Source: Acidobacteriota bacterium (GTDB lineage Bacteria; Acidobacteriota; Vicinamibacteria; Marinacidobacterales; Marinacidobacteraceae). From it: 64,000 bases of DNA. The stretch lies in NCBI GenBank assembly GCA_009840635.1, contig VXNL01000079.1, positions 3,782-67,781 of the forward strand, read 5' to 3'. The notes below the pieces were generated by a model. That model had not been told where the DNA came from. It saw nothing but the letters and a program-made list of their open reading frames with translations, and did no database searches. The position numbers and the translations under genes are program-made. Shown here piece after piece: positions 19,581 to 57,582 of this stretch (positions are counted from its first letter, which is position 1; every line of letters starts with the position of its first letter).

Positions 19581-19623
19581 GGAGCGCCGGCCTCTGGCCG
19601 GCATCGCGGCCCGGGAGGGCCGC
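19581..19623 (+). repeat. REP-like element, family 2 (GGAGCGCCGGCCTCTGGCCGGCATCGC plus GGCCCGGGAGGGCCG hairpin)
   Basis: It starts 7 nt after the PPOX stop. The same element occurs after stop codons at 20.6, 30.9, 32.9 and 39.8 kb. Confidence 0.75.
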
Positions 19624-19746
19624 GAAACGGGACCTCACTGCCCGCGCAGACGGCAGGAACGCGTCGGAGGATCGGCCTTCGGCCGGCCCGGCTTTCCATG
19701 GGTACGAAGCACCAGACGGGCTGGACGCCGAGGTGCCATCGTTTGT

Positions 19747-28668: not shown

Positions 28669-30852
<2,184 letters not shown>

Positions 30853-30921: not shown

Positions 30922-31611
30922 TCAGCGCGCGTCGGTCACCAGCCGCCGCCCGTTCAGCGGCTGCACCGGCCGGTTGTTTACGGGGAAGAGCGCGCGGAAC
31001 GCCTCGATCTGTTCCCGCGAAGCCGTCACCGGCTCGCTCATCATCAGCCAGGACACGCCCTCGCTGCACGGCGGCGTGGTCAGCGAACCCGAATAGCGCC
31101 AGGTCGTCCGCCGCTCGGGCAGCAGCGCGGCGGCGTCCACCGTCCCCGCAACCAGCGCGGCAGGTCCCGCCTCCGCCGGCACGTGACGCCAGACCGGAGC
31201 GAGGGCCTCGTTCGCTGCGCCCTCCTCGAGAAACACGCCGACCACGGCGAGCGCACCATCGGCGTCCTCGTGAACCAGGTGCAGTTCCAGCGGAAAGTCC
31301 GCGCCGTCCACGGTGTGCTCGCTCCGGTGGTGGAAATGAAACTGGGTCAGTCCGTAGCGCGTTCCGTCGAGGACGATGCCGCTCCCGGCCTGGTAGTCCA
31401 CCTGGATGGTGTGGCCGTTGTTCTGGATGGAGATCGGGCTCGGCGCGTACTCGAAGCCGATCTCCGACAGGGCTTCCCGTTCGGCGCCCGTGAGGTCGAT
31501 CGGCGACTGCTCGCGGCCGCCCGTGCACACGGCGAACGCGGGGTCCAGCGAACCCCAGTGGTCAGGGCCGAGCTCGCCCTCATATCCCCAGTGCGGCCCT
31601 CCGGCGATCAT
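30922..31611 (-). CDS. Alpha-class carbonic anhydrase
   Basis: It has the QSPIDL and FHFHHRSEH zinc histidines and SGSLTTPPC. No N-terminal signal peptide is present in the called ORF. Confidence 0.85.
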   Translation of the reverse strand: MIAGGPHWGYEGELGPDHWGSLDPAFAVCTGGREQSPIDLTGAEREALSEIGFEYAPSPISIQNNGHTIQVDYQAGSGIVLDGTRYGLTQFHFHHRSEHTVDGADFPLELHLVHEDADGALAVVGVFLEEGAANEALAPVWRHVPAEAGPAALVAGTVDAAALLPERRTTWRYSGSLTTPPCSEGVSWLMMSEPVTASREQIEAFRALFPVNNRPVQPLNGRRLVTDAR

Positions 31612-31723
31612 GACTGCGTTCCGTTCAACATCGGTCCTTCGTCCCGCTGCGTAGTGTGTAATTGATCGCCTCCGTGTCCACGTCCAGGTGTGGCCGGGTC
31701 ACTGGGGAAGGAGGGAAGGGGTC

Positions 31724-32860
31724 ATGATCGAGTGGCTCGGCATCGGCCACCTGCTGGAGCTTTCCGGAACGGAGGCGGTTCTGGGGTTTCTTACCCCCCT
31801 GCTGGTCTTCGTCTTCTTCTTCGTGGCGCAGCTCATCCTGCCGGGACGGTGGGTTCCCGGCTACGTCGTCGATCCGAAGACCGGTGAGCCACGGAAGTAT
31901 CGGCTGAACGGCCTCCTGGTGTTCGTCATCGCCCTGGTTGTGTGGGCCTTCGAGCTCACCGGCATGCCCCGCGACTGGTTCTACCGGTCTTCGCTCTACG
32001 CCGTCGCCGGGGGAACCCTCCTCACCATCATCTTCACGATCCTCGCGGTGTTCAGCCAGCCGGAAGGCAGGGTCAAGAACCGGTTCCTGGCGTGGTGGTT
32101 CGGGCGGGCGCAGGAGCTGCAGTTCTTCAACCACCGCTTCGACGTGAAGATGTGGTTCTACGTCGTCGGCGGGACGATGCTGTCGCTGAACGCCCTGTCG
32201 GGGGCCGTCTACCACTATGAACTCTTCGGCGAGAACTCCAATCCGGGCGTCTTCGTGTACGCGGGGTTCTTCACGTTCTACGTGCTGGACTACTTCGTCT
32301 TCGAGCGCGTCCAGCTCTACACCTACGACCTGATCCACGAGAACGTCGGTTTCAAGCTCTTCTGGGGCGGCCTCATCGTCTACGGCTGGATGTTCATCCT
32401 CCCGCTCTGGGGCATGGCCGTCTACCCGCATCCGGGATTCTCGCCGGCGGCGACGAACGCTTGGCTCATCGGGACGGTGGCGATGTTCCTCTTCGGGTGG
32501 GGCATCTCGCGCGGCGCCAACCTGCAGAAGTACACGTTCAAGCGCTGGCCCGACCGCACGTTCCTGGGCATCGAGCCCGAGGTCATCGAGGCCGGCGACC
32601 GCAGGATCCTGTGCAGCGGTTTCTGGGGCGTCGCCCGTCACTTCAACTACCTGGGCGAGGGATTTCTGGGGCTGTCGATCGCCCTGATCTTCGGCCACTT
32701 CACAAACTTCTGGGCCTGGACCTACTTCATCTTCGTCGTCTCGATGTTCACCTACCGCCAACGGGACGACGACGCGCACTGCGCCCAGAAATACGGCCCC
32801 GAGAAGTGGGCGGAGTACCAGGCACGGGTGAAGTACCGGATCGTCCCCGGGATCTACTGA
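31724..32860 (+). CDS. ERG4/ERG24/DHCR7-family sterol reductase homolog
   Basis: Sterol reductase signature 2 is present (LCSGFWGVARHFNYLGE), as is the GANLQKYTFKRWPD motif. It is a polytopic membrane protein of 378 aa. An RBS GGAAGGGAGG lies upstream of ATG 31724. Confidence 0.8.
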   Translation: MIEWLGIGHLLELSGTEAVLGFLTPLLVFVFFFVAQLILPGRWVPGYVVDPKTGEPRKYRLNGLLVFVIALVVWAFELTGMPRDWFYRSSLYAVAGGTLLTIIFTILAVFSQPEGRVKNRFLAWWFGRAQELQFFNHRFDVKMWFYVVGGTMLSLNALSGAVYHYELFGENSNPGVFVYAGFFTFYVLDYFVFERVQLYTYDLIHENVGFKLFWGGLIVYGWMFILPLWGMAVYPHPGFSPAATNAWLIGTVAMFLFGWGISRGANLQKYTFKRWPDRTFLGIEPEVIEAGDRRILCSGFWGVARHFNYLGEGFLGLSIALIFGHFTNFWAWTYFIFVVSMFTYRQRDDDAHCAQKYGPEKWAEYQARVKYRIVPGIY

Positions 32861-32864
32861 GCTT

Positions 32865-32909
32865 GGAGCGCCGGCCTCCGGCCGGCATCGCGGCCCGAGA
32901 GGGCCGCGA
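32865..32909 (+). repeat. REP-like element, family 2 (GGAGCGCCGGCCTCCGGCCGGCATCGC plus GGCCCGAGAGGGCCG hairpin)
   Basis: It starts 5 nt after the sterol-reductase stop. Confidence 0.75.
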
Positions 32910-33004
32910 TACCGTGAACGGCAGATGGAGCGAGTGGCGCGCAGGGTGGGACCGCCGGTCTGAAGGCCGCTACCGCGAGAACCGGCCGGCGGTCCCGGCC
33001 GCCC

Positions 33005-39900: not shown

Positions 39901-40094
39901 GGCGACGTGCCGTCATTTGCCTTGGGCGACTGAGGTCCGGGAACGTTCCGCCTGCTCGTTTGGACCGAGAGAAGCCCCTCTTCCGACAGGTCAGCGTTGC
40001 GACGCCATTGATTTATCGAATGTCCAGGACGGGTTCGAGTGTCCGAATGTCGATTCCCGTGTCGGAGACCTCCCGCGCGACGTGAGGCCAACAA

Positions 40095-40637
40095 TCAAAA
40101 GGCATCCGCTTCGGGCAACCGCAGAATGCTCCAATTCTCCCGATAGGCGTCAAGCCAGCCCGATCGATACCGATCAAGCGTCTTCCTTCCTTTCTCCGTG
40201 ATCGGCTTGATGTTCGAGTAGTCGGGTAACAGCCGACGCACGTCGCTGTCCTTGTGTGGCTGACCTGCTTTGCCGGGAGTGTCGAGCCACACTTGGTGGC
40301 AGTCGCGAATACAGGCCGCCACCACGCTGGAGGGAAGGACGTAGCAAACCGTCGTATCGGACGGCTGTTTGCCGACGTCGACTAAGACGTAGAACAGATC
40401 GTCGGCGACCATGGTCGCGTGCCTAGCCCTCATGTGCCAGCCCTTGTCGCCTCCGATGCCACGTCGCGTCTTTACTTGGATGGCACACAACTTCTTGGAG
40501 TTCTTGTCGGTGACCAGGATGTCCATGTTCGGTGCCCCATCCGGTGCGAGGGCCGCAATCCAGCCACGCCGCAACAACTGACTGAGCACGTGATACTCGC
40601 CGGCGGCGCCGACGATAGTCGAACTGATCTTGTGCAT
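40095..40637 (-). CDS. Mrr-cat / PD-(D/E)xK-like (Hjc-like) nuclease-fold protein
   Basis: GAAGEYHV (E), NMDILV (D) and CAIQVK (QxK) are spaced as in Mrr/Hjc catalytic cores. It lies in a lower-GC patch. The ATG at 40635 is preferred. The track ORF extends to 40700. Confidence 0.55.
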   Translation of the reverse strand: MHKISSTIVGAAGEYHVLSQLLRRGWIAALAPDGAPNMDILVTDKNSKKLCAIQVKTRRGIGGDKGWHMRARHATMVADDLFYVLVDVGKQPSDTTVCYVLPSSVVAACIRDCHQVWLDTPGKAGQPHKDSDVRRLLPDYSNIKPITEKGRKTLDRYRSGWLDAYRENWSILRLPEADAF

Positions 40638-40748
40638 CGGGTCAGAGCGGTCCTTCAGGCGGAGGTTCAACGGTACGGGGTTCTGACGCCAGTGAGGCAC
40701 AGAACAGGACGTCCACCCCGAGCGTGGCGCGCCTCCCGAGGCTTTGAA

Positions 40749-41303
40749 TCAGGACGAACGCCTCGATGCGGGCCCGAAGAGACTCCCCGGGGCCGCTTTC
40801 TGCGCATCGGCGCCGTTGCTGTCGAGAACGAAACGCGCCCGCTCGGCACGTAGCATGGCAAAGGGCGTCACGCATTTGACGCCGAGACCGATGCATACGT
40901 TGGGGATCTTGATTCTCCTTGGTGTATCGGCGGGCACCTCGTGCGTTACGACCGCGTGTCCCCCGGTCAGGGCCTGACCGACCAAGTAGTAGTCGGCGGC
41001 CTGCAGGAACGAGTTGATCGCCGCCGGGTCGTACGACTGCTCCCTTACCCATTCGCTTACTCGTTCCAATGACGGCAAGTCGGCTGCCTGAGGCAGGACG
41101 AAGAACTCCGGACCTCGCTGCTTGGCCCACTCCCGAAGTTCGTCGTCCGAGGCACCGATTTCGTCGCCCACTTTGTCGATACTGCGCACCAGCCCGCGGG
41201 CGTGGCCGACCACGATCCAATCCCAGAAGCCAGGACAGAAGTCGAAACCGTAGTGAAGGTTCTTCGCAGCGATCAGGACATTGGCGTCCAGGAGGTAGGC
41301 CAT
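40749..41303 (-). CDS. DUF4411 PIN-like domain protein (putative toxin/effector)
   Basis: The N-terminal MAYLLDANVLIAAKN is a PIN motif, followed by GFWDW. Downstream acidic residues lie in ADYYLVGQAL...VVTHE, then KIPNVC. The start overlaps the upstream gene stop (TGATG). Confidence 0.6.
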   Translation of the reverse strand: MAYLLDANVLIAAKNLHYGFDFCPGFWDWIVVGHARGLVRSIDKVGDEIGASDDELREWAKQRGPEFFVLPQAADLPSLERVSEWVREQSYDPAAINSFLQAADYYLVGQALTGGHAVVTHEVPADTPRRIKIPNVCIGLGVKCVTPFAMLRAERARFVLDSNGADAQKAAPGSLFGPASRRSS

Positions 41304-42451
41304 CAGGAAGTCAGGCCCAGGCGGCGGCTCAGTTCGTTGAAGGTCGCCATCTTGCGGAACCCGAGAAGGCGGAAGGCCTCCGTGTAGGACGAGCGGCCTT
41401 CCAGGGTGGCCCCGACGACGGCCCGGGCGAACTGCTTGCTGACCCGGGCGCCGATGCTCCTGTAGAAGTCGCCGCCGGAGTCACGGGCCACGGCGCGGAG
41501 CCTGTCGAGTTCTTCGTCGTAGGCGTTCCAGTACTCCTGCCGGGTGAGGGCGCCGAGTTCGTGGAGACGTCGTAGCACCACCAGCGTGCTCACCTTGAAG
41601 TGGCGGGCGAGTCGCGTGGCCTCTGCCGGAAGTGGCGCGCTGGGGCGATACTCCGCTCGCACCAGCCGGATCGGGGCCAGGATTTCCGCCGCCACCTGGT
41701 TGCAGAAGCGCTCCGTCTCGTGATCGGGGATGACGCGGTCCTGACTGTCGGAGAGCGCCGTTTCTCCAAGCCAGACATGAGCCAACTCGTGGGCTAGCGT
41801 GAACATCTGGGCCGACTTCGAGTCCGCTCCGTTCACGAAGATGACCGGCGCGAGATCGTCCACCAGAGCAAAACCGCGGAACTCCCGGAAGTCCAGCCGG
41901 CGGCGCGTGTTGCTCCCGACCACGCCGCTGACCATGACGAGCACCCCGAGGCTGTTGGCCTGTTCAACGAAGAGCCGCAGTGCCGCGGTCCACGTTGCGA
42001 GGCGGCGCCGTTCTTCGAGGTCGAACCGGAGCGCGGCGCGGATCCGATCGGCCACTCCCTCGACATCGTCCGAACGGCTCACCGAGCCGACAAAGTCCAG
42101 CGGCGCTTCTCCGTCCGTACGGGCGTTGTCGCGGTACCACGCCTGCCGTTGCTGGCAGAGGTAGATCGTGTCCAGCAGGTCGGCGCTGGGCCGGGCGACA
42201 GGTTTGTCAGCGATGGTGCGGAAGTCCGGGATGGGAAGGCGCTCCTCCGGCGGTTCGGGGAGGAAGAAGAAACCGATCGGGGTGCGCGAAGCCTTGGCAA
42301 AGCGTTCCAACTGTCTGAGCGTCGGGTTCTCCGCGCCGCGTGCCCAGGCCGGGAACGCCGGAAAACGCTGCGCCAGGGTCTCGGGCTCAAGGCGGCCGCG
42401 TTCGCACGCCCAGCGGAGTACACCGGCGTGGACGGGTATGCGCACAGTCAT
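41303..42451 (-). CDS. HTH (XRE-like) domain fused to an ImmA/IrrE-family (M78, COG2856) zinc metallopeptidase
   Basis: It carries the HEXXH motif HELAHVWLGE. The N-terminal helix-turn-helix region spans PTLRQLERFAKASRTPIGFF. Length is 382 aa. Confidence 0.75.
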   Translation of the reverse strand: MTVRIPVHAGVLRWACERGRLEPETLAQRFPAFPAWARGAENPTLRQLERFAKASRTPIGFFFLPEPPEERLPIPDFRTIADKPVARPSADLLDTIYLCQQRQAWYRDNARTDGEAPLDFVGSVSRSDDVEGVADRIRAALRFDLEERRRLATWTAALRLFVEQANSLGVLVMVSGVVGSNTRRRLDFREFRGFALVDDLAPVIFVNGADSKSAQMFTLAHELAHVWLGETALSDSQDRVIPDHETERFCNQVAAEILAPIRLVRAEYRPSAPLPAEATRLARHFKVSTLVVLRRLHELGALTRQEYWNAYDEELDRLRAVARDSGGDFYRSIGARVSKQFARAVVGATLEGRSSYTEAFRLLGFRKMATFNELSRRLGLTS

Positions 42452-56601: not shown

Positions 56602-57582
56602 ATGCTGCATCAGGCCCTCCGCATCGGGACCTTTGCGTTCCCGGCCTGGGTCCTGTTGGCCAGCCTTCTCGCGCTCTGGCGGCCCGAGGTCTTCACGTGG
56701 TTCAGCGGCGGCCTGATCACCGTCGGGCTGGGCGTCATCATGCTGGGGATGGGGCTGACGCTGGAGGTGGACGACTTCCGGCGCGTCCTGCGGCGGCCGG
56801 CGCCGATCGGCCTGGGCGTGGTGCTCCAGTACTTCGTCATGCCCCTGATGGGCTGGACCGTGGCCTGGGCGCTCGATCTGCCGCGGGAGTTCGCGGTGGG
56901 GCTCATCCTGGTCTCCTGCTGTCCGGGCGGGGTGGCCTCGAACGTAATCTCGTATCTGGCGCTCGCCGACGTGCCGCTGTCCGTTTCGATGACCGCGGTC
57001 TCCACCGGCCTGTCCGTCCTGATGACCCCGGCGCTCGTGGCCATGCTGGCGAGCAGCCGCATCGATGTTCCCGCCGCCGGGCTGCTCCTCAGCACCGTGC
57101 AGGTGGTGATCCTGCCCATCGTCACCGGCCTCGTCCTGAGGCGCTACGCTCCTGGTCTCACCCGGGCCGTCCTCCCCTACGGTCCGTTCACGTCCGTGGT
57201 GCTGATCACCGTGATCGTGGCTTCCATCATCGGCTCGAGCCGGGCGATCATCCTCGAATCGGGCGACCTGCTGGTCGTCGCGGTATTCCTGCTCCACGCC
57301 GGCGGCTTCTTCTTCGGCTACACCCTCGCGCGTCTCGTCTCGCGCCGCGTTCCGACCGCGCGGACCGTCTCCATCGAAGTCGGGATGCAGAACTCCGGCC
57401 TCGGGGTGGTCCTCGCCGGCCAGAACTTCACGAGCCCGCTGGTCGCGGTCCCAAGCGCCATCTCGAGCCTCTTCCATTCGCTCATCGGCAGCGTGGTGGC
57501 GGGCGTCTGGCGGGCCAGCGCCGTGCGTCAGGCGGCGCGCGGATCGGACACTGACGAGCGGCCCGCGGTTTCGGTCCCGTAG
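56602..57582 (+). CDS. Bile acid:sodium symporter (BASS/SBF) family transporter
   Basis: It has the typical BASS helices and the conserved GLILVSCCPGGVASNV segment. Confidence 0.85.
   Translation: MLHQALRIGTFAFPAWVLLASLLALWRPEVFTWFSGGLITVGLGVIMLGMGLTLEVDDFRRVLRRPAPIGLGVVLQYFVMPLMGWTVAWALDLPREFAVGLILVSCCPGGVASNVISYLALADVPLSVSMTAVSTGLSVLMTPALVAMLASSRIDVPAAGLLLSTVQVVILPIVTGLVLRRYAPGLTRAVLPYGPFTSVVLITVIVASIIGSSRAIILESGDLLVVAVFLLHAGGFFFGYTLARLVSRRVPTARTVSIEVGMQNSGLGVVLAGQNFTSPLVAVPSAISSLFHSLIGSVVAGVWRASAVRQAARGSDTDERPAVSVP

What the first reader, a model, noticed from the sequence alone, without database searches (positions are those of the whole stretch)
31724..32860. Eukaryote-type sterol reductase (ERG4/ERG24/DHCR7 family) homolog in a bacterial housekeeping neighbourhood
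The ORF carries the sterol-reductase signature LCSGFWGVARHFNYLGE and the DHCR7-like GANLQKYTFKRWPD segment, within a polytopic fold of about 8 TM helices.

This family is rare in bacteria. No squalene or oxidosqualene cyclase or other sterol gene is nearby. The substrate is open: sterol, hopanoid-like, or another isoprenoid double bond.

The gene is divergently paired with a signal-peptide-less alpha-carbonic anhydrase and followed by a family-2 REP.
Basis: partly seen in the sequence, partly recalled or inferred. Interest (0 to 1): 0.6.

Follow-up and report, generated by a model that had tools for sequence, protein, structure and literature searches.

The report
Orphan sterol-reductase-like gene of sponge symbionts
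This is a real membrane NADPH-reductase gene of the sterol-reductase (ERG4/ERG24) family, standing alone in an acidobacterial sponge-symbiont genome; it belongs to a tightly conserved clade shared by sponge-associated bacteria of many phyla and probably modifies sterols the bacterium does not make, but enrichment of such genes in sponge symbionts is already published.

Summary
The ORF is real: 31724-32860 (+), 378 aa. It scores 125 bits against PF01222 (cut-off 27). Its closest solved structure is the bacterial delta14-sterol reductase MaSR1 (4QUV). The NADPH-pocket residues and the proposed catalytic Tyr are conserved and invariant among 42 homologues.

It is not a canonical DHCR7/ERG24/ERG4 orthologue (24-33% identity). 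It is also not the ERG24 of the published sponge-symbiont sterol operon ("CSG": ERG24-CYP51-oxidosqualene cyclase), to which it is 29% identical.

It belongs to a separate clade of about 379 aa. Members share 77-96% identity with the window protein across at least 12 phylum- or class-level labels. At least 583 matches were found in species-representative genomes. Every MAG whose source I could check comes from Ircinia sponges.

The window is an Acidobacteriota "Bin61"-type symbiont. The four Bin61 MAGs checked, three of them carrying this gene, are recorded as lacking the CSG.

In other lineages, orthologues sit beside two sterol methyltransferases, P450s and a transporter with a sterol-sensing domain, or beside sulfotransferase/SDR/Rieske(KshA-like) modules.

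Best reading: an NADPH-dependent C=C reductase acting on acquired (host or community) sterols. Which double bond it reduces is unknown.

The general enrichment and horizontal transfer were published by Kelly et al. (2022). The distinct clade is uncharacterised. Interest is moderate.

The parts
31724..32860 (+). CDS of the 378-aa ERG4/ERG24-family membrane reductase (sponge-symbiont clade). An alternative GTG start lies at 31688.
   Evidence: ORF. PF01222 at 125 bits. 4QUV at E = 1.7e-35. Homologues start at the same Met. Fold matches 4QUV with TM-score 0.73-0.75.
31710..31714 (+). GGAGG Shine-Dalgarno-like motif, 9 nt upstream of the ATG at 31724
   Evidence: Read from the sequence. It supports 31724 as the start.
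31612..31723 (.). 112-bp divergent intergenic region between the carbonic anhydrase and the reductase
   Evidence: Coordinates. No sigma-70 consensus was found there, so the promoter is unassigned.
32279..32281 (+). Codon of Tyr186, the equivalent of the proposed catalytic Tyr241 of MaSR1
   Evidence: Residue mapping. Invariant in 42 homologues. Role taken from PMC12489058.
32513..32554 (+). GANLQKYTFKRWPD segment (residues 264-277). It contains Lys269, which aligns with MaSR1 K319.
   Evidence: A265, Q268, K269, Y270, K273, R274, W275 and P276 are invariant.
32609..32659 (+). LCSGFWGVARHFNYLGE signature (residues 296-312). R305, H306 and N308 align with the MaSR1 NADPH-pocket residues R356, H357 and N359. 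E312 replaces D363.
   Evidence: The role of N359 is described in PMC4951196.
32756..32818 (+). C-terminal cofactor-binding segment, R345 to Y365. R345, D349, K356, Y357 and Y365 align with MaSR1 R395, D399, K406, Y407 and Y414.
   Evidence: All five are invariant.
32870..32914 (+). REP-like double hairpin just after the stop codon. A second copy lies at 19586-19626.
   Evidence: Inverted repeats I4 and I1. The 41-nt motif occurs twice against 0 expected.
30922..31611 (-). Divergent neighbour: an alpha-carbonic anhydrase without a signal peptide. It is context only and is not shown to be functionally linked.
   Evidence: PF00194 at 150 bits. It lies next to the reductase only in L001-L006. Eukaryotic-type carbonic anhydrases are reported as enriched in sponge-dwelling prokaryotes.

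Best explanation
The gene encodes a polytopic inner-membrane, NADPH-dependent C=C reductase of the ERG4/ERG24 fold.

**Proposed mechanism (inferred)**
- NADPH binds in the cytoplasm-facing pocket formed by the C-terminal helices. The pocket residues are K269, R305, H306, N308, R345, D349, K356, Y357 and Y365.
- A hydrophobic polycyclic substrate enters sideways from the membrane.
- A hydride passes from NADPH to one carbon of a double bond. Tyr186, with Glu312, protonates the other carbon.

**Biological setting**
- The protein belongs to a distinct, strongly constrained clade that has spread horizontally among sponge-associated bacteria of many phyla.
- In this organism (an Acidobacteriota 'Bin61'-type sponge symbiont) it is a single, separately transcribed gene with no sterol-ring biosynthesis genes nearby.
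- Its most likely job is to saturate a double bond in sterols the cell acquires from the sponge host or from neighbouring symbionts.
- The bond is probably not delta14. A side-chain bond, delta24(28)/delta24(25)/delta25, is my leading guess. A nuclear bond, delta7 or delta4/5, is also possible.

**Shown versus inferred**
- Shown: family membership, fold, conserved cofactor and catalytic residues, clade separation, distribution across phyla, purifying selection, and sterol-type neighbours of orthologues.
- Inferred: that the substrate is a sterol, that it comes from outside the cell, and which bond is reduced.
For: **Family and active site**
- PF01222 scores 125 bits.
- MaSR1 (4QUV) is the best solved relative by sequence and by fold (TM-score 0.73-0.75).
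- The equivalents of MaSR1 Y241, K319, W352, R356, H357, N359, R395, D399, K406, Y407 and Y414 are identical here and invariant in 42 homologues. D363 is conservatively replaced by Glu.
- The roles of N359/R395 and Y241/D363 come from PMC4951196 and PMC12489058.

**Distinct clade**
- Identity is 29% to a CSG-operon ERG24 taken from Kelly et al. Data File S1, and 33% to MaSR1. The CSG ERG24 is itself 39% identical to MaSR1.
- At 50% clustering the whole group collapses to one full-length representative. The next full-length relatives are 49% and 41% identical.
- The core clade has 79% bootstrap support.

**Spread and constraint**
- At least 583 matches were found in species-representative genomes. 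The best 80 are 76-96% identical and carry at least 12 phylum- or class-level labels.
- Median identity between labels is 80%, and 123 of 380 columns are invariant. Several taxa are split across the tree.
- Gene GC tracks flank GC (r = 0.83).
- dN/dS is about 0.14 within the window's lineage.

**Sterol link**
- A 79%-identical orthologue (L081) lies between two GPP34-P450 fusions and two Sterol_MT_C methyltransferases. A DUF1329 protein and an MMPL transporter with a sterol-sensing domain follow. No cyclase is within 10 kb.
- The 41%-identical gammaproteobacterial relative lies in an operon of sulfotransferase, SDRs, an SRPBCC protein and a Rieske/KshA_C oxygenase. Parts of that module recur next to orthologues in Nitrospirales and Thermodesulfobacteriota.

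**Acquired rather than self-made substrate**
- No cyclase, SMT or squalene-synthase gene occurs in the 64 kb window.
- All four Bin61 MAGs listed in Kelly Table S1 are 86-91% complete and recorded as 'CSG present: No'. Three of them carry the gene at 92-95% identity (L002, L004, L006).

**Probably not delta14**
- One UBA8248 MAG holds both a CSG with its own ERG24 and this gene (L033).
Against: - No biochemical data exist for any member of this clade.
- The clade is as far from every characterised sterol reductase (24-33% identity) as those enzymes are from each other or further, so the substrate class is not guaranteed.
- In the window, and in most of the 80 loci, the neighbours are unrelated housekeeping genes.
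- In the Gemmatimonadota-like group the neighbours are PhyH dioxygenases, a thioester-reductase-sulfotransferase fusion and a protein with weak similarity to ceramidase. These would fit a non-sterol lipid equally well.
- Absence of sterol synthesis in the window's organism rests on incomplete MAGs and on a CSG-specific screen, not on a whole-genome search.
- Deep branches of my NJ tree are poorly supported.
Only their strong matches to MaSR1 and to database proteins validate them.
Confidence: 0.55

Rival explanations
1. It is an ordinary delta14-sterol reductase (ERG24/TM7SF2 orthologue, KEGG K00222). It would act after CYP51 in de novo bacterial sterol synthesis, with the rest of the pathway encoded elsewhere in the genome.
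For: - JGI labels clade members 'delta14-sterol reductase'.
- The best solved relative is the delta14 reductase MaSR1.
- Sponge symbionts of many phyla do carry sterol operons.
Against: - Identity is only 29% to the ERG24 of the sponge-symbiont operon and 33% to MaSR1. It sits outside the group where MaSR1, plant FACKEL (P0244) and the CSG ERG24 are each other's nearest relatives.
- None of the 80 closest loci has a cyclase motif, and none has a P450 identified as CYP51, within 10 kb.
- The four Bin61 MAGs checked, three of them carrying the gene, are recorded as lacking the operon. One MAG has both the operon's own ERG24 and this gene.
Confidence: 0.1
2. It reduces a non-sterol lipid. Candidates are another isoprenoid (polyprenol, hopanoid-like compound, carotenoid, sponge terpenoid) or a long-chain unsaturated lipid typical of the sponge environment. 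It would use the same NADPH chemistry.
For: - The clade is divergent and has no characterised member.
- There is a weak additional DUF1295 match.
- In 12-14 Gemmatimonadota-like loci the neighbours are PhyH dioxygenases, a methyltransferase, an SDR, a thioester-reductase-sulfotransferase fusion and a protein with weak similarity to ceramidase. These are not specifically steroid enzymes.
- Nothing sterol-related lies in the window.
Against: - Every characterised PF01222 enzyme acts on sterols (established knowledge of the family).
- Orthologues sit directly beside genuine Sterol_MT_C methyltransferases, a transporter with a sterol-sensing domain and a KshA-type Rieske oxygenase.
- Restriction to animal-associated (sterol-rich) microbiomes fits a sterol substrate.
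Confidence: 0.25
3. It is a 5alpha-reductase-like (delta4/delta5) nuclear reductase. It would act in a pathway that turns host delta5-sterols into stanols and stanol sulfates: SDR oxidation and isomerisation, then reduction, then sulfation.
For: - Sulfotransferase plus SDR genes recur beside the reductase or its 41% relative in Nitrospirales and Gammaproteobacteria. A sulfotransferase fusion lies nearby in the Gemmatimonadota-like group.
- SRD5A enzymes share structural features with MaSR1 (titles and abstracts).
- From my own knowledge, sponges are rich in stanols and sterol sulfates.
Against: - The PF01222 score far exceeds the DUF1295 score, and no SRD5A structure is matched even at E = 1.
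- The window lineage has none of these neighbours.
- This is a sub-case of the best explanation with a different bond, and no direct evidence discriminates between them.
Confidence: 0.08
4. It is a non-catalytic relic or a sterol-binding or sensing membrane protein that has kept the fold.
For: Nothing specific, beyond the orphan context in the window.
Against: - All cofactor-pocket residues and the catalytic Tyr are invariant across phyla.
- dN/dS is about 0.14.
- 123 of 380 columns are invariant in 81 sequences.
Confidence: 0.02

Closest known systems
MaSR1, delta14-sterol reductase of Methylotuvimicrobium alcaliphilum (PDB 4QUV)
   Same: - Same Pfam family.
- Same overall fold (TM-score 0.73-0.75).
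- Same NADPH-pocket residues and the same proposed catalytic Tyr.
- Bacterial origin.
   Different: - Only 33% identical.
- MaSR1 groups with eukaryotic TM7SF2, DHCR7 and ERG24, and the window protein does not.
- The window protein is about 50 residues shorter at the N-terminus and has Glu in place of Asp363.
- From my own knowledge, MaSR1 comes from a sterol-producing methanotroph.
ERG24 of the sponge-symbiont 'cluster of steroid genes' (CSG: ERG24-CYP51-SMO/OSC), Kelly et al. 2022, PMC9531527
   Same: - Same habitat: Ircinia and other sponge symbionts, many phyla.
- Same family.
- Same KEGG label (K00222).
- Evidence of horizontal transfer.
- Strong purifying selection (omega 0.13 there, about 0.14 here).
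   Different: - 29% identity, 343 aa against 378 aa.
- The CSG type lies in an operon with CYP51 and a cyclase. The window type stands alone or sits with side-chain and tailoring genes.
- Both types can occur in one MAG.
Orphan sterol reductases of intracellular bacteria (Coxiella burnetii delta24 reductase; chlamydial homologues), cited in PMC9666466 and PMC10070321
   Same: A eukaryote-type sterol reductase in a host-associated bacterium that lacks sterol synthesis, thought to act on host sterols.
   Different: - I could not compare the sequences, so the relationship is conceptual only.
- Those bacteria are intracellular pathogens or symbionts. Here the gene is shared by bacteria of at least 12 phylum- or class-level labels.
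Uncharacterised ERG4/ERG24-like proteins of unicellular eukaryotes (Monosiga A9VAA6, Salpingoeca F2U813, Corallochytrium, a chytrid, an amoebozoan)
   Same: 38-42% identical over the C-terminal 240 residues, which is closer than any canonical sterol reductase.
   Different: - Their N-terminal halves differ.
- They have no known function.
- The nearest full-length relatives of the window protein are bacterial (P0125, P0134).

Membership tests
Pfam PF01222 ERG4/ERG24 (sterol reductase family) | HMM score above the curated gathering threshold over most of the domain | tested here: met
   125.4 bits against a cut-off of 27, covering profile positions 75-432 of 432. The profile of 42 homologues hits 4QUV at E = 2.3e-39.
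Pfam PF01222 ERG4/ERG24 (sterol reductase family) | MaSR1-type polytopic fold | tested here: met
   The AlphaFold model (pLDDT 69, pTM 0.74) has 4QUV as its only significant PDB match, at TM-score 0.73-0.75 over 375-378 columns. Model confidence is moderate.
Pfam PF01222 ERG4/ERG24 (sterol reductase family) | NADPH-pocket residues (MaSR1 N359, R395 and neighbours) | tested here: met
   N308, R345, K269, W301, R305, H306, D349, K356, Y357 and Y365 are all identical to MaSR1 and invariant in 42 homologues. Roles come from PMC4951196.
Pfam PF01222 ERG4/ERG24 (sterol reductase family) | Proposed catalytic pair Tyr241/Asp363 (MaSR1 numbering) | tested here: inconclusive
   The Tyr is conserved (Y186). 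The Asp is replaced by an invariant Glu (E312). The CSG ERG24 also has Glu at this position (NYTGE).
Pfam PF01222 ERG4/ERG24 (sterol reductase family) | NADPH-dependent reduction of a sterol C=C bond | not testable with these tools
   This needs an enzyme assay.
Canonical delta14-sterol reductase (ERG24/TM7SF2/LBR/FACKEL/MaSR1; K00222) | Groups with characterised delta14 reductases | tested here: not met
   Identity is 33% to MaSR1, and 25-30% to ERG24 and TM7SF2 recalled from memory. MaSR1, P0244 (plant FACKEL cluster) and P0259 are each other's nearest relatives, while the window protein's nearest are P0125, P0134 and P0142. Deep nodes are weakly supported.
Canonical delta14-sterol reductase (ERG24/TM7SF2/LBR/FACKEL/MaSR1; K00222) | Genomic company of CYP51 and oxidosqualene cyclase | tested here: not met
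   None in the 64 kb window. No cyclase motif in the 80 loci within 10 kb on either side. Bin61 MAGs are recorded as 'CSG present: No'. The whole genome was not searched.
DHCR7 (delta7-sterol reductase) | Closer to DHCR7 than to other family branches | tested here: not met
The SGFWGVARHFNY resemblance is a short motif only.
ERG4 (delta24(28)-sterol reductase) | Sequence affinity to ERG4 | tested here: not met
   24% identity and 54 bits to yeast ERG4 recalled from memory, the lowest of the four references. A side-chain role is suggested only by the SMT neighbours of an orthologue.
Sponge-symbiont CSG operon (Kelly et al. 2022) | ERG24-CYP51-LSS gene order and orthology to the CSG ERG24 | tested here: not met
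   29% identity to a CSG ERG24. There is no CYP51 or LSS beside the gene in the window, and no cyclase beside it in the related loci.
DUF1295 / SRD5A / ICMT-like reductases and methyltransferases | Best match to PF06966 or to solved SRD5A/ICMT structures | tested here: not met
   DUF1295 scores 24 bits over the C-terminal part only, against 125 bits for PF01222. No SRD5A or ICMT chain is matched even at E = 1.
REP-like repeated palindromic element | Imperfect palindrome repeated in intergenic regions | tested here: met
   Two copies of the 41-nt double hairpin in the window, both just after stop codons, against 0 expected. Only two copies were seen, and the family numbering was not verifiable.

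The most novel reading that the evidence does not exclude
This clade may be the missing sterol side-chain reductase of sponge microbiomes. Bacteria that cannot make the sterol ring system would take up host sterols and tailor the side chain, using SMTs where present, and this enzyme would then saturate it.

That would complete a bacterial route from the unsaturated products of symbiont SMTs (24-methylene, isofucosterol, 24-isopropyl-5,25-dienol) to saturated 24-alkyl sterols, including 24-isopropylcholesterol. Such a route bears on the 'sponge biomarker' reading of Neoproterozoic 24-isopropylcholestane.

Brown et al. (2023) list no ERG4-type reductase in the sponge-symbiont clusters I saw in their Supplementary Data 1. 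An orthologue of this gene lies between two SMTs and two P450s, with a sterol-type transporter alongside.
Probability: 0.15. Interest if true: 0.75.

Novelty: new member of a known kind. Interest (0 to 1): 0.42.

Why it matters
**What the gene would mean**
- Sponges hold unusual sterols, and it is debated who makes or modifies them.
- This gene is kept under strong purifying selection in symbionts of at least a dozen phylum- or class-level groups, including lineages whose MAGs show no sterol operon.
- That points to a common need to process acquired sterols. Possible purposes are membrane incorporation, detoxification, or signalling to the host.

**What is already published**
- The enrichment and horizontal transfer of 'ERG24' genes in sponge symbionts are known.

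**What this adds**
- Two different reductase types hide under that label.
- The more conserved, more widespread type is usually not next to ring-biosynthesis genes.
- The enzyme is small, single-gene and easy to express, so the question is directly testable.

Tried and rejected
**Neighbour conservation**
- I clustered ORFs from 80 loci plus the window.
- No neighbour is conserved across all lineages. The carbonic anhydrase and quinone oxidoreductase are specific to one lineage.
- KatG lies within 10 kb in 22 of 81 loci. Its cross-lineage identity is only 66-68%, which is ordinary for KatG, so I did not treat it as co-transferred.

**Using dS to date the transfers**
- Cross-phylum pS is 0.34-0.60, which looks unsaturated.
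- Shared GC3 bias of up to 0.92 depresses apparent dS, so I drew no conclusion on timing.

**Phylogeny**
- The bootstrapped NJ tree supports the core clade at 79%. Deeper groupings, including a clean 'canonical' clade, get only 4-22%.
- Placement therefore rests mainly on pairwise scores and nearest neighbours.
- Labelling clades through cluster names was only partly informative.

**Other negative results**
- NCBIfam has no model for the protein.
- The promoter and terminator scans found nothing convincing. The one terminator-like hit lies inside the CDS.
- A simple hydropathy scan undercounts the helices, so I relied on the structural model.
- The GPP34-P450 fusions next to the L081 orthologue match CYP51 structures only weakly (70 bits), so I did not call them CYP51.
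- I could not confirm the sponge origin of the loci labelled only with UUIDs.
Full report
**1. The observation**

The window (about 70% G+C) has an ORF at 31688/31724-32860 on the + strand. The ATG at 31724 is preceded by GGAGG at 31710-31714. It coincides with the first residue of all homologues, so the product is 378 aa.

Both quoted motifs are present: GANLQKYTFKRWPD at residues 264-277 and LCSGFWGVARHFNYLGE at residues 296-312.

Pfam gives PF01222 (ERG4_ERG24) at E = 3.4e-36 and 125 bits, against a cut-off of 27. DUF1295 is only a weak secondary hit at 24 bits. NCBIfam has no model for the protein.

The closest solved structure by sequence is MaSR1, the delta14-sterol reductase of a methanotroph (4QUV, E = 1.7e-35; E = 2.3e-39 with a profile). 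An AlphaFold model (pLDDT 69, pTM 0.74) matches only 4QUV in the PDB, at TM-score 0.73-0.75.

**2. The active site**

I mapped residues through the MaSR1 alignment. The two NADPH-binding residues whose human LBR equivalents cause Greenberg dysplasia, N359 and R395 (PMC4951196), are N308 and R345 here. The proposed catalytic Tyr241 (PMC12489058) is Y186. Its partner Asp363 is Glu312.

K269, W301, R305, H306, D349, K356, Y357 and Y365 also match MaSR1. All of these are invariant in an alignment of 42 homologues. This looks like a working NADPH-dependent reductase.

**3. Where it comes from**

A protein search gave 1186 hits. The best 120 are all about 379 aa and 77-95% identical, yet they are labelled as Actinomycetia, Gemmatimonadetes, Dadabacteria, Chloroflexi and others.

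A scan of species-representative genomes found at least 583 matching stretches, using peptide patterns specific to this protein. The best 80 loci are 76-96% identical. Their labels include Acidobacteriota (several classes), Gemmatimonadota, Latescibacterota, Nitrospirales, Nitrospinota, Binatia, Thermodesulfobacteriota, Dehalococcoidia, Acidimicrobiales and Opitutales.

The closest loci (L001-L006, 90-96%) share the window's synteny: M28 peptidase, VIT1, KatG, carbonic anhydrase, reductase, with neighbours 82-97% identical.

Three of these are MAGs from Kelly et al. 2022. Their Table S1 lists them as Acidobacteriota class 'Bin61', from Ircinia felix, I. lowi and I. bocatorensis, at 69.4-69.7% GC. 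The window is therefore from a Bin61-type acidobacterial sponge symbiont.

The other isolate names (SB06xx, RHO/COS, Plut_, Langseth, UUID series) look to me like sponge or coral MAG series. That rests on my own knowledge and is not verified.

**4. What is already published**

Kelly et al. (preprint 10.1101/2020.08.31.276493; Microbiome 2022, PMC9531527) reported the following:
- 'delta14-sterol reductase (TM7SF2/ERG24, K00222)', SMT, FDFT1, LSS and CYP51 are enriched in sponge symbionts.
- These genes occur scattered, in doublets, or in a conserved ERG24-CYP51-LSS operon (the CSG).
- The CSG is present in 115 of 537 MAGs from 10 phyla.
- Gene trees indicate horizontal transfer, and omega is 0.13 for ERG24.

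Brown et al. 2023 (PMC10070321) showed that symbiont SMTs build 24-isopropyl side chains in vitro.

The broad phenomenon is therefore known.

**5. This gene is not the CSG reductase**

I took one CSG from Kelly's Data File S1. Its ERG24 is 343 aa. It is only 29% identical to the window protein but 39% identical to MaSR1. The window protein is 33% identical to MaSR1.

In an exhaustive search of 1.84 billion representatives at 50% identity, the whole 77-95% group collapses to a single full-length representative (P0121). The next full-length relatives are 49% (P0125) and 41% (P0134, a gammaproteobacterial MAG) identical.

In an NJ tree the window protein groups with these bacterial proteins. MaSR1, the CSG ERG24 and P0244 form another region of the tree. 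P0244's cluster contains a plant delta14 reductase.

They are validated only by their 34-45% matches to MaSR1. They find MaSR1 or P0259 as best hits, and match the window protein at only 24-31%.

Proteins of unicellular eukaryotes are somewhat closer, at 38-42% over the C-terminal half. These come from Monosiga, Salpingoeca, Corallochytrium, a chytrid and an amoebozoan, and none has a known function.

Bootstrap support is 79% for the core clade and poor for deeper nodes.

**6. Evolution**

Among the 81 sequences:
- Median identity is 85% within a taxon label and 80% between labels.
- 123 of 380 columns are invariant.
- Small clades are taxon-coherent, but Nitrospirales, Binatia, Acidobacteriota and Thermodesulfobacteriota each appear at several places in the tree.
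- Gene GC (0.53-0.65) and GC3 (0.66-0.92) follow the flanking GC (r = 0.83 and 0.80), so the copies have adapted to their hosts.
- dN/dS within the Bin61 group is about 0.14.

This is the pattern of a gene exchanged among co-resident symbionts and then kept under strong constraint.

**7. Clues to the substrate**

The window holds housekeeping and transport genes only. These include KatG, VIT1, quinone oxidoreductase, UvrC, TrpRS, ProRS, GatB and transporters. No cyclase, SMT or squalene-synthase motif occurs.

The gene is monocistronic. It is divergent from the carbonic anhydrase and convergent with the oxidoreductase, with a double hairpin after its stop codon.

Orthologues elsewhere are more informative:
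- **Thermodesulfobacteriota (L081, 79% identical).** The gene lies among a FAD amine-oxidase-type protein, two GPP34-P450 fusions, two methyltransferases with the Sterol_MT_C domain, a DUF1329/TP_0789-like protein and an MMPL transporter with a sterol-sensing domain. No cyclase is within 10 kb. The transporter is related to HpnN.
- **Nitrospirales.** A TonB-dependent receptor follows directly in seven loci. One lineage also has DUF1214, a sulfotransferase, an SDR and an SRPBCC protein upstream.
- **The gammaproteobacterial 41% relative.** It lies in an operon of DUF1214, sulfotransferase, SDR, SDR, SRPBCC, SDR, reductase and a Rieske/KshA_C oxygenase. That module is 57-82% identical to the Nitrospirales one. 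The Rieske gene recurs at 63-66% identity downstream of the orthologue in another Thermodesulfobacteriota group.
- **A Gemmatimonadota-like group of 12-14 loci.** The neighbours are three PhyH dioxygenases, an SDR, a methyltransferase and, in some, a thioester-reductase-sulfotransferase fusion. This is less specifically steroid-like.

Kelly's Table S1 records 'CSG present: No' for all four Bin61 MAGs listed, three of which carry this gene, and for two Binatia MAGs that carry it. It records 'Yes' for a UBA8248 MAG (L033), which therefore has both reductase types.

Brown et al.'s sponge-symbiont clusters, as far as their Supplementary Data 1 was shown to me, list ERG24-type but no ERG4-type reductases.

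**8. Interpretation**

The best-supported reading (confidence about 0.55) is an NADPH-dependent sterol C=C reductase acting on sterols obtained from the sponge or from neighbouring bacteria.

Co-occurrence with a separate CSG ERG24 in one genome, and adjacency to SMTs in another, argue against delta14 and mildly for a side-chain bond. A nuclear bond (delta7, or delta4/5 in a stanol or sulfate route) cannot be excluded.

Rivals:
- A canonical delta14 enzyme of a dispersed de novo pathway (about 0.1).
- A reductase of a non-sterol lipid (about 0.25).
- A 5alpha-reductase-like role (about 0.08).
- A non-catalytic protein (about 0.02).

**9. Verdict**

It is a new, uncharacterised member of a known enzyme family. 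Its ecological pattern is already described in outline, so interest is moderate.

The most novel reading still open is that this clade is the side-chain reductase that lets symbionts finish saturated 24-alkyl sterols. That would matter for the sponge-biomarker debate (probability about 0.15).

Noticed in passing
window 30922-31611 (-): An alpha (eukaryotic-type) carbonic anhydrase whose ORF starts right at the mature domain (MIAGGPHWGYEG), so it has no signal peptide. It lies next to the reductase only in the Bin61-like loci L001-L006 (82-91% identical). Eukaryotic-type carbonic anhydrases are reported as enriched in sponge-dwelling prokaryotes, so two 'symbiosis-enriched' genes sit back to back here.
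   Followed up: partly
window 32870-32914 and 19586-19626 (+): A conserved double-hairpin element of about 41-50 nt (GCCGGCCTCYGGCCGGC + ATCGCGGCCCGRGAGGGCCGCGA) lies immediately after two unrelated stop codons. It looks like a REP or a terminator. Only two copies were seen in the window.
   Followed up: partly
window 28720-30852 (+); L001-L003, L006; L009-L016, L022, L028, L036, L039-L042, L060: KatG lies within 10 kb of the reductase in 22 of 81 loci, from two or three unrelated lineages. It is duplicated in tandem in some Bin61-like MAGs. Cross-lineage identity is 66-68%. Whether this is coincidence or a shared island is unresolved.
   Followed up: partly
L081 3729-18777 (same island in L059, L062, L073, L082): A putative sterol side-chain tailoring and transport island without a cyclase. 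It holds a FAD amine-oxidase-like protein, two GPP34(GOLPH3)-P450 fusion proteins of 672 aa, the reductase, two sterol methyltransferases, a 448-aa protein with no family, a DUF1329 protein and an MMPL transporter with a sterol-sensing domain. The GPP34-P450 fusion is unusual in itself.
   Followed up: partly
L087 4293-12133; L083 3564-7599: A module of DUF1214, sulfotransferase, SDRs and an SRPBCC protein is shared at 57-82% identity between a gammaproteobacterial MAG and a Nitrospirales MAG. In L087 it forms an operon with a 41%-identical ERG4/ERG24-like reductase and a Rieske/KshA_C oxygenase. In L083 it lies upstream of the 79%-identical orthologue.
   Followed up: partly
L027, L037, L041, L048, L054, L055, L083, about 70-170 bp downstream of the reductase: In Nitrospirales sponge MAGs a TonB-dependent receptor of about 980 aa follows the reductase on the same strand (83-100% identical among them). 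This hints at uptake of an outer-membrane-impermeant substrate.
   Followed up: no
window 56602-57582 (+): A transporter of the sodium/bile-acid symporter family (PF01758, 152 bits), 24 kb from the reductase. It is probably unrelated.
   Followed up: no
window 40001-42451: G+C dips to 0.63 against about 0.70 elsewhere, around a Peptidase_M78/IrrE-domain gene (41303-42451, -). This may be a foreign or mobile segment.
   Followed up: no
L059 and L062 (contig CAXXCU010000001.1, about 2.15 Mb apart): There are two copies of the whole reductase/SMT island on one contig, with the same internal coordinates. This is either a large duplication or a redundantly assembled circular chromosome.
   Followed up: no
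Kelly et al. Data File S1, first CSG: The third CSG gene is a fusion of a squalene-monooxygenase-like FAD domain with the oxidosqualene cyclase. Brown et al.'s table gives the same gene ID for ERG1 and ERG7, which agrees with this. It explains the long 'LSS' alignment.
   Followed up: no
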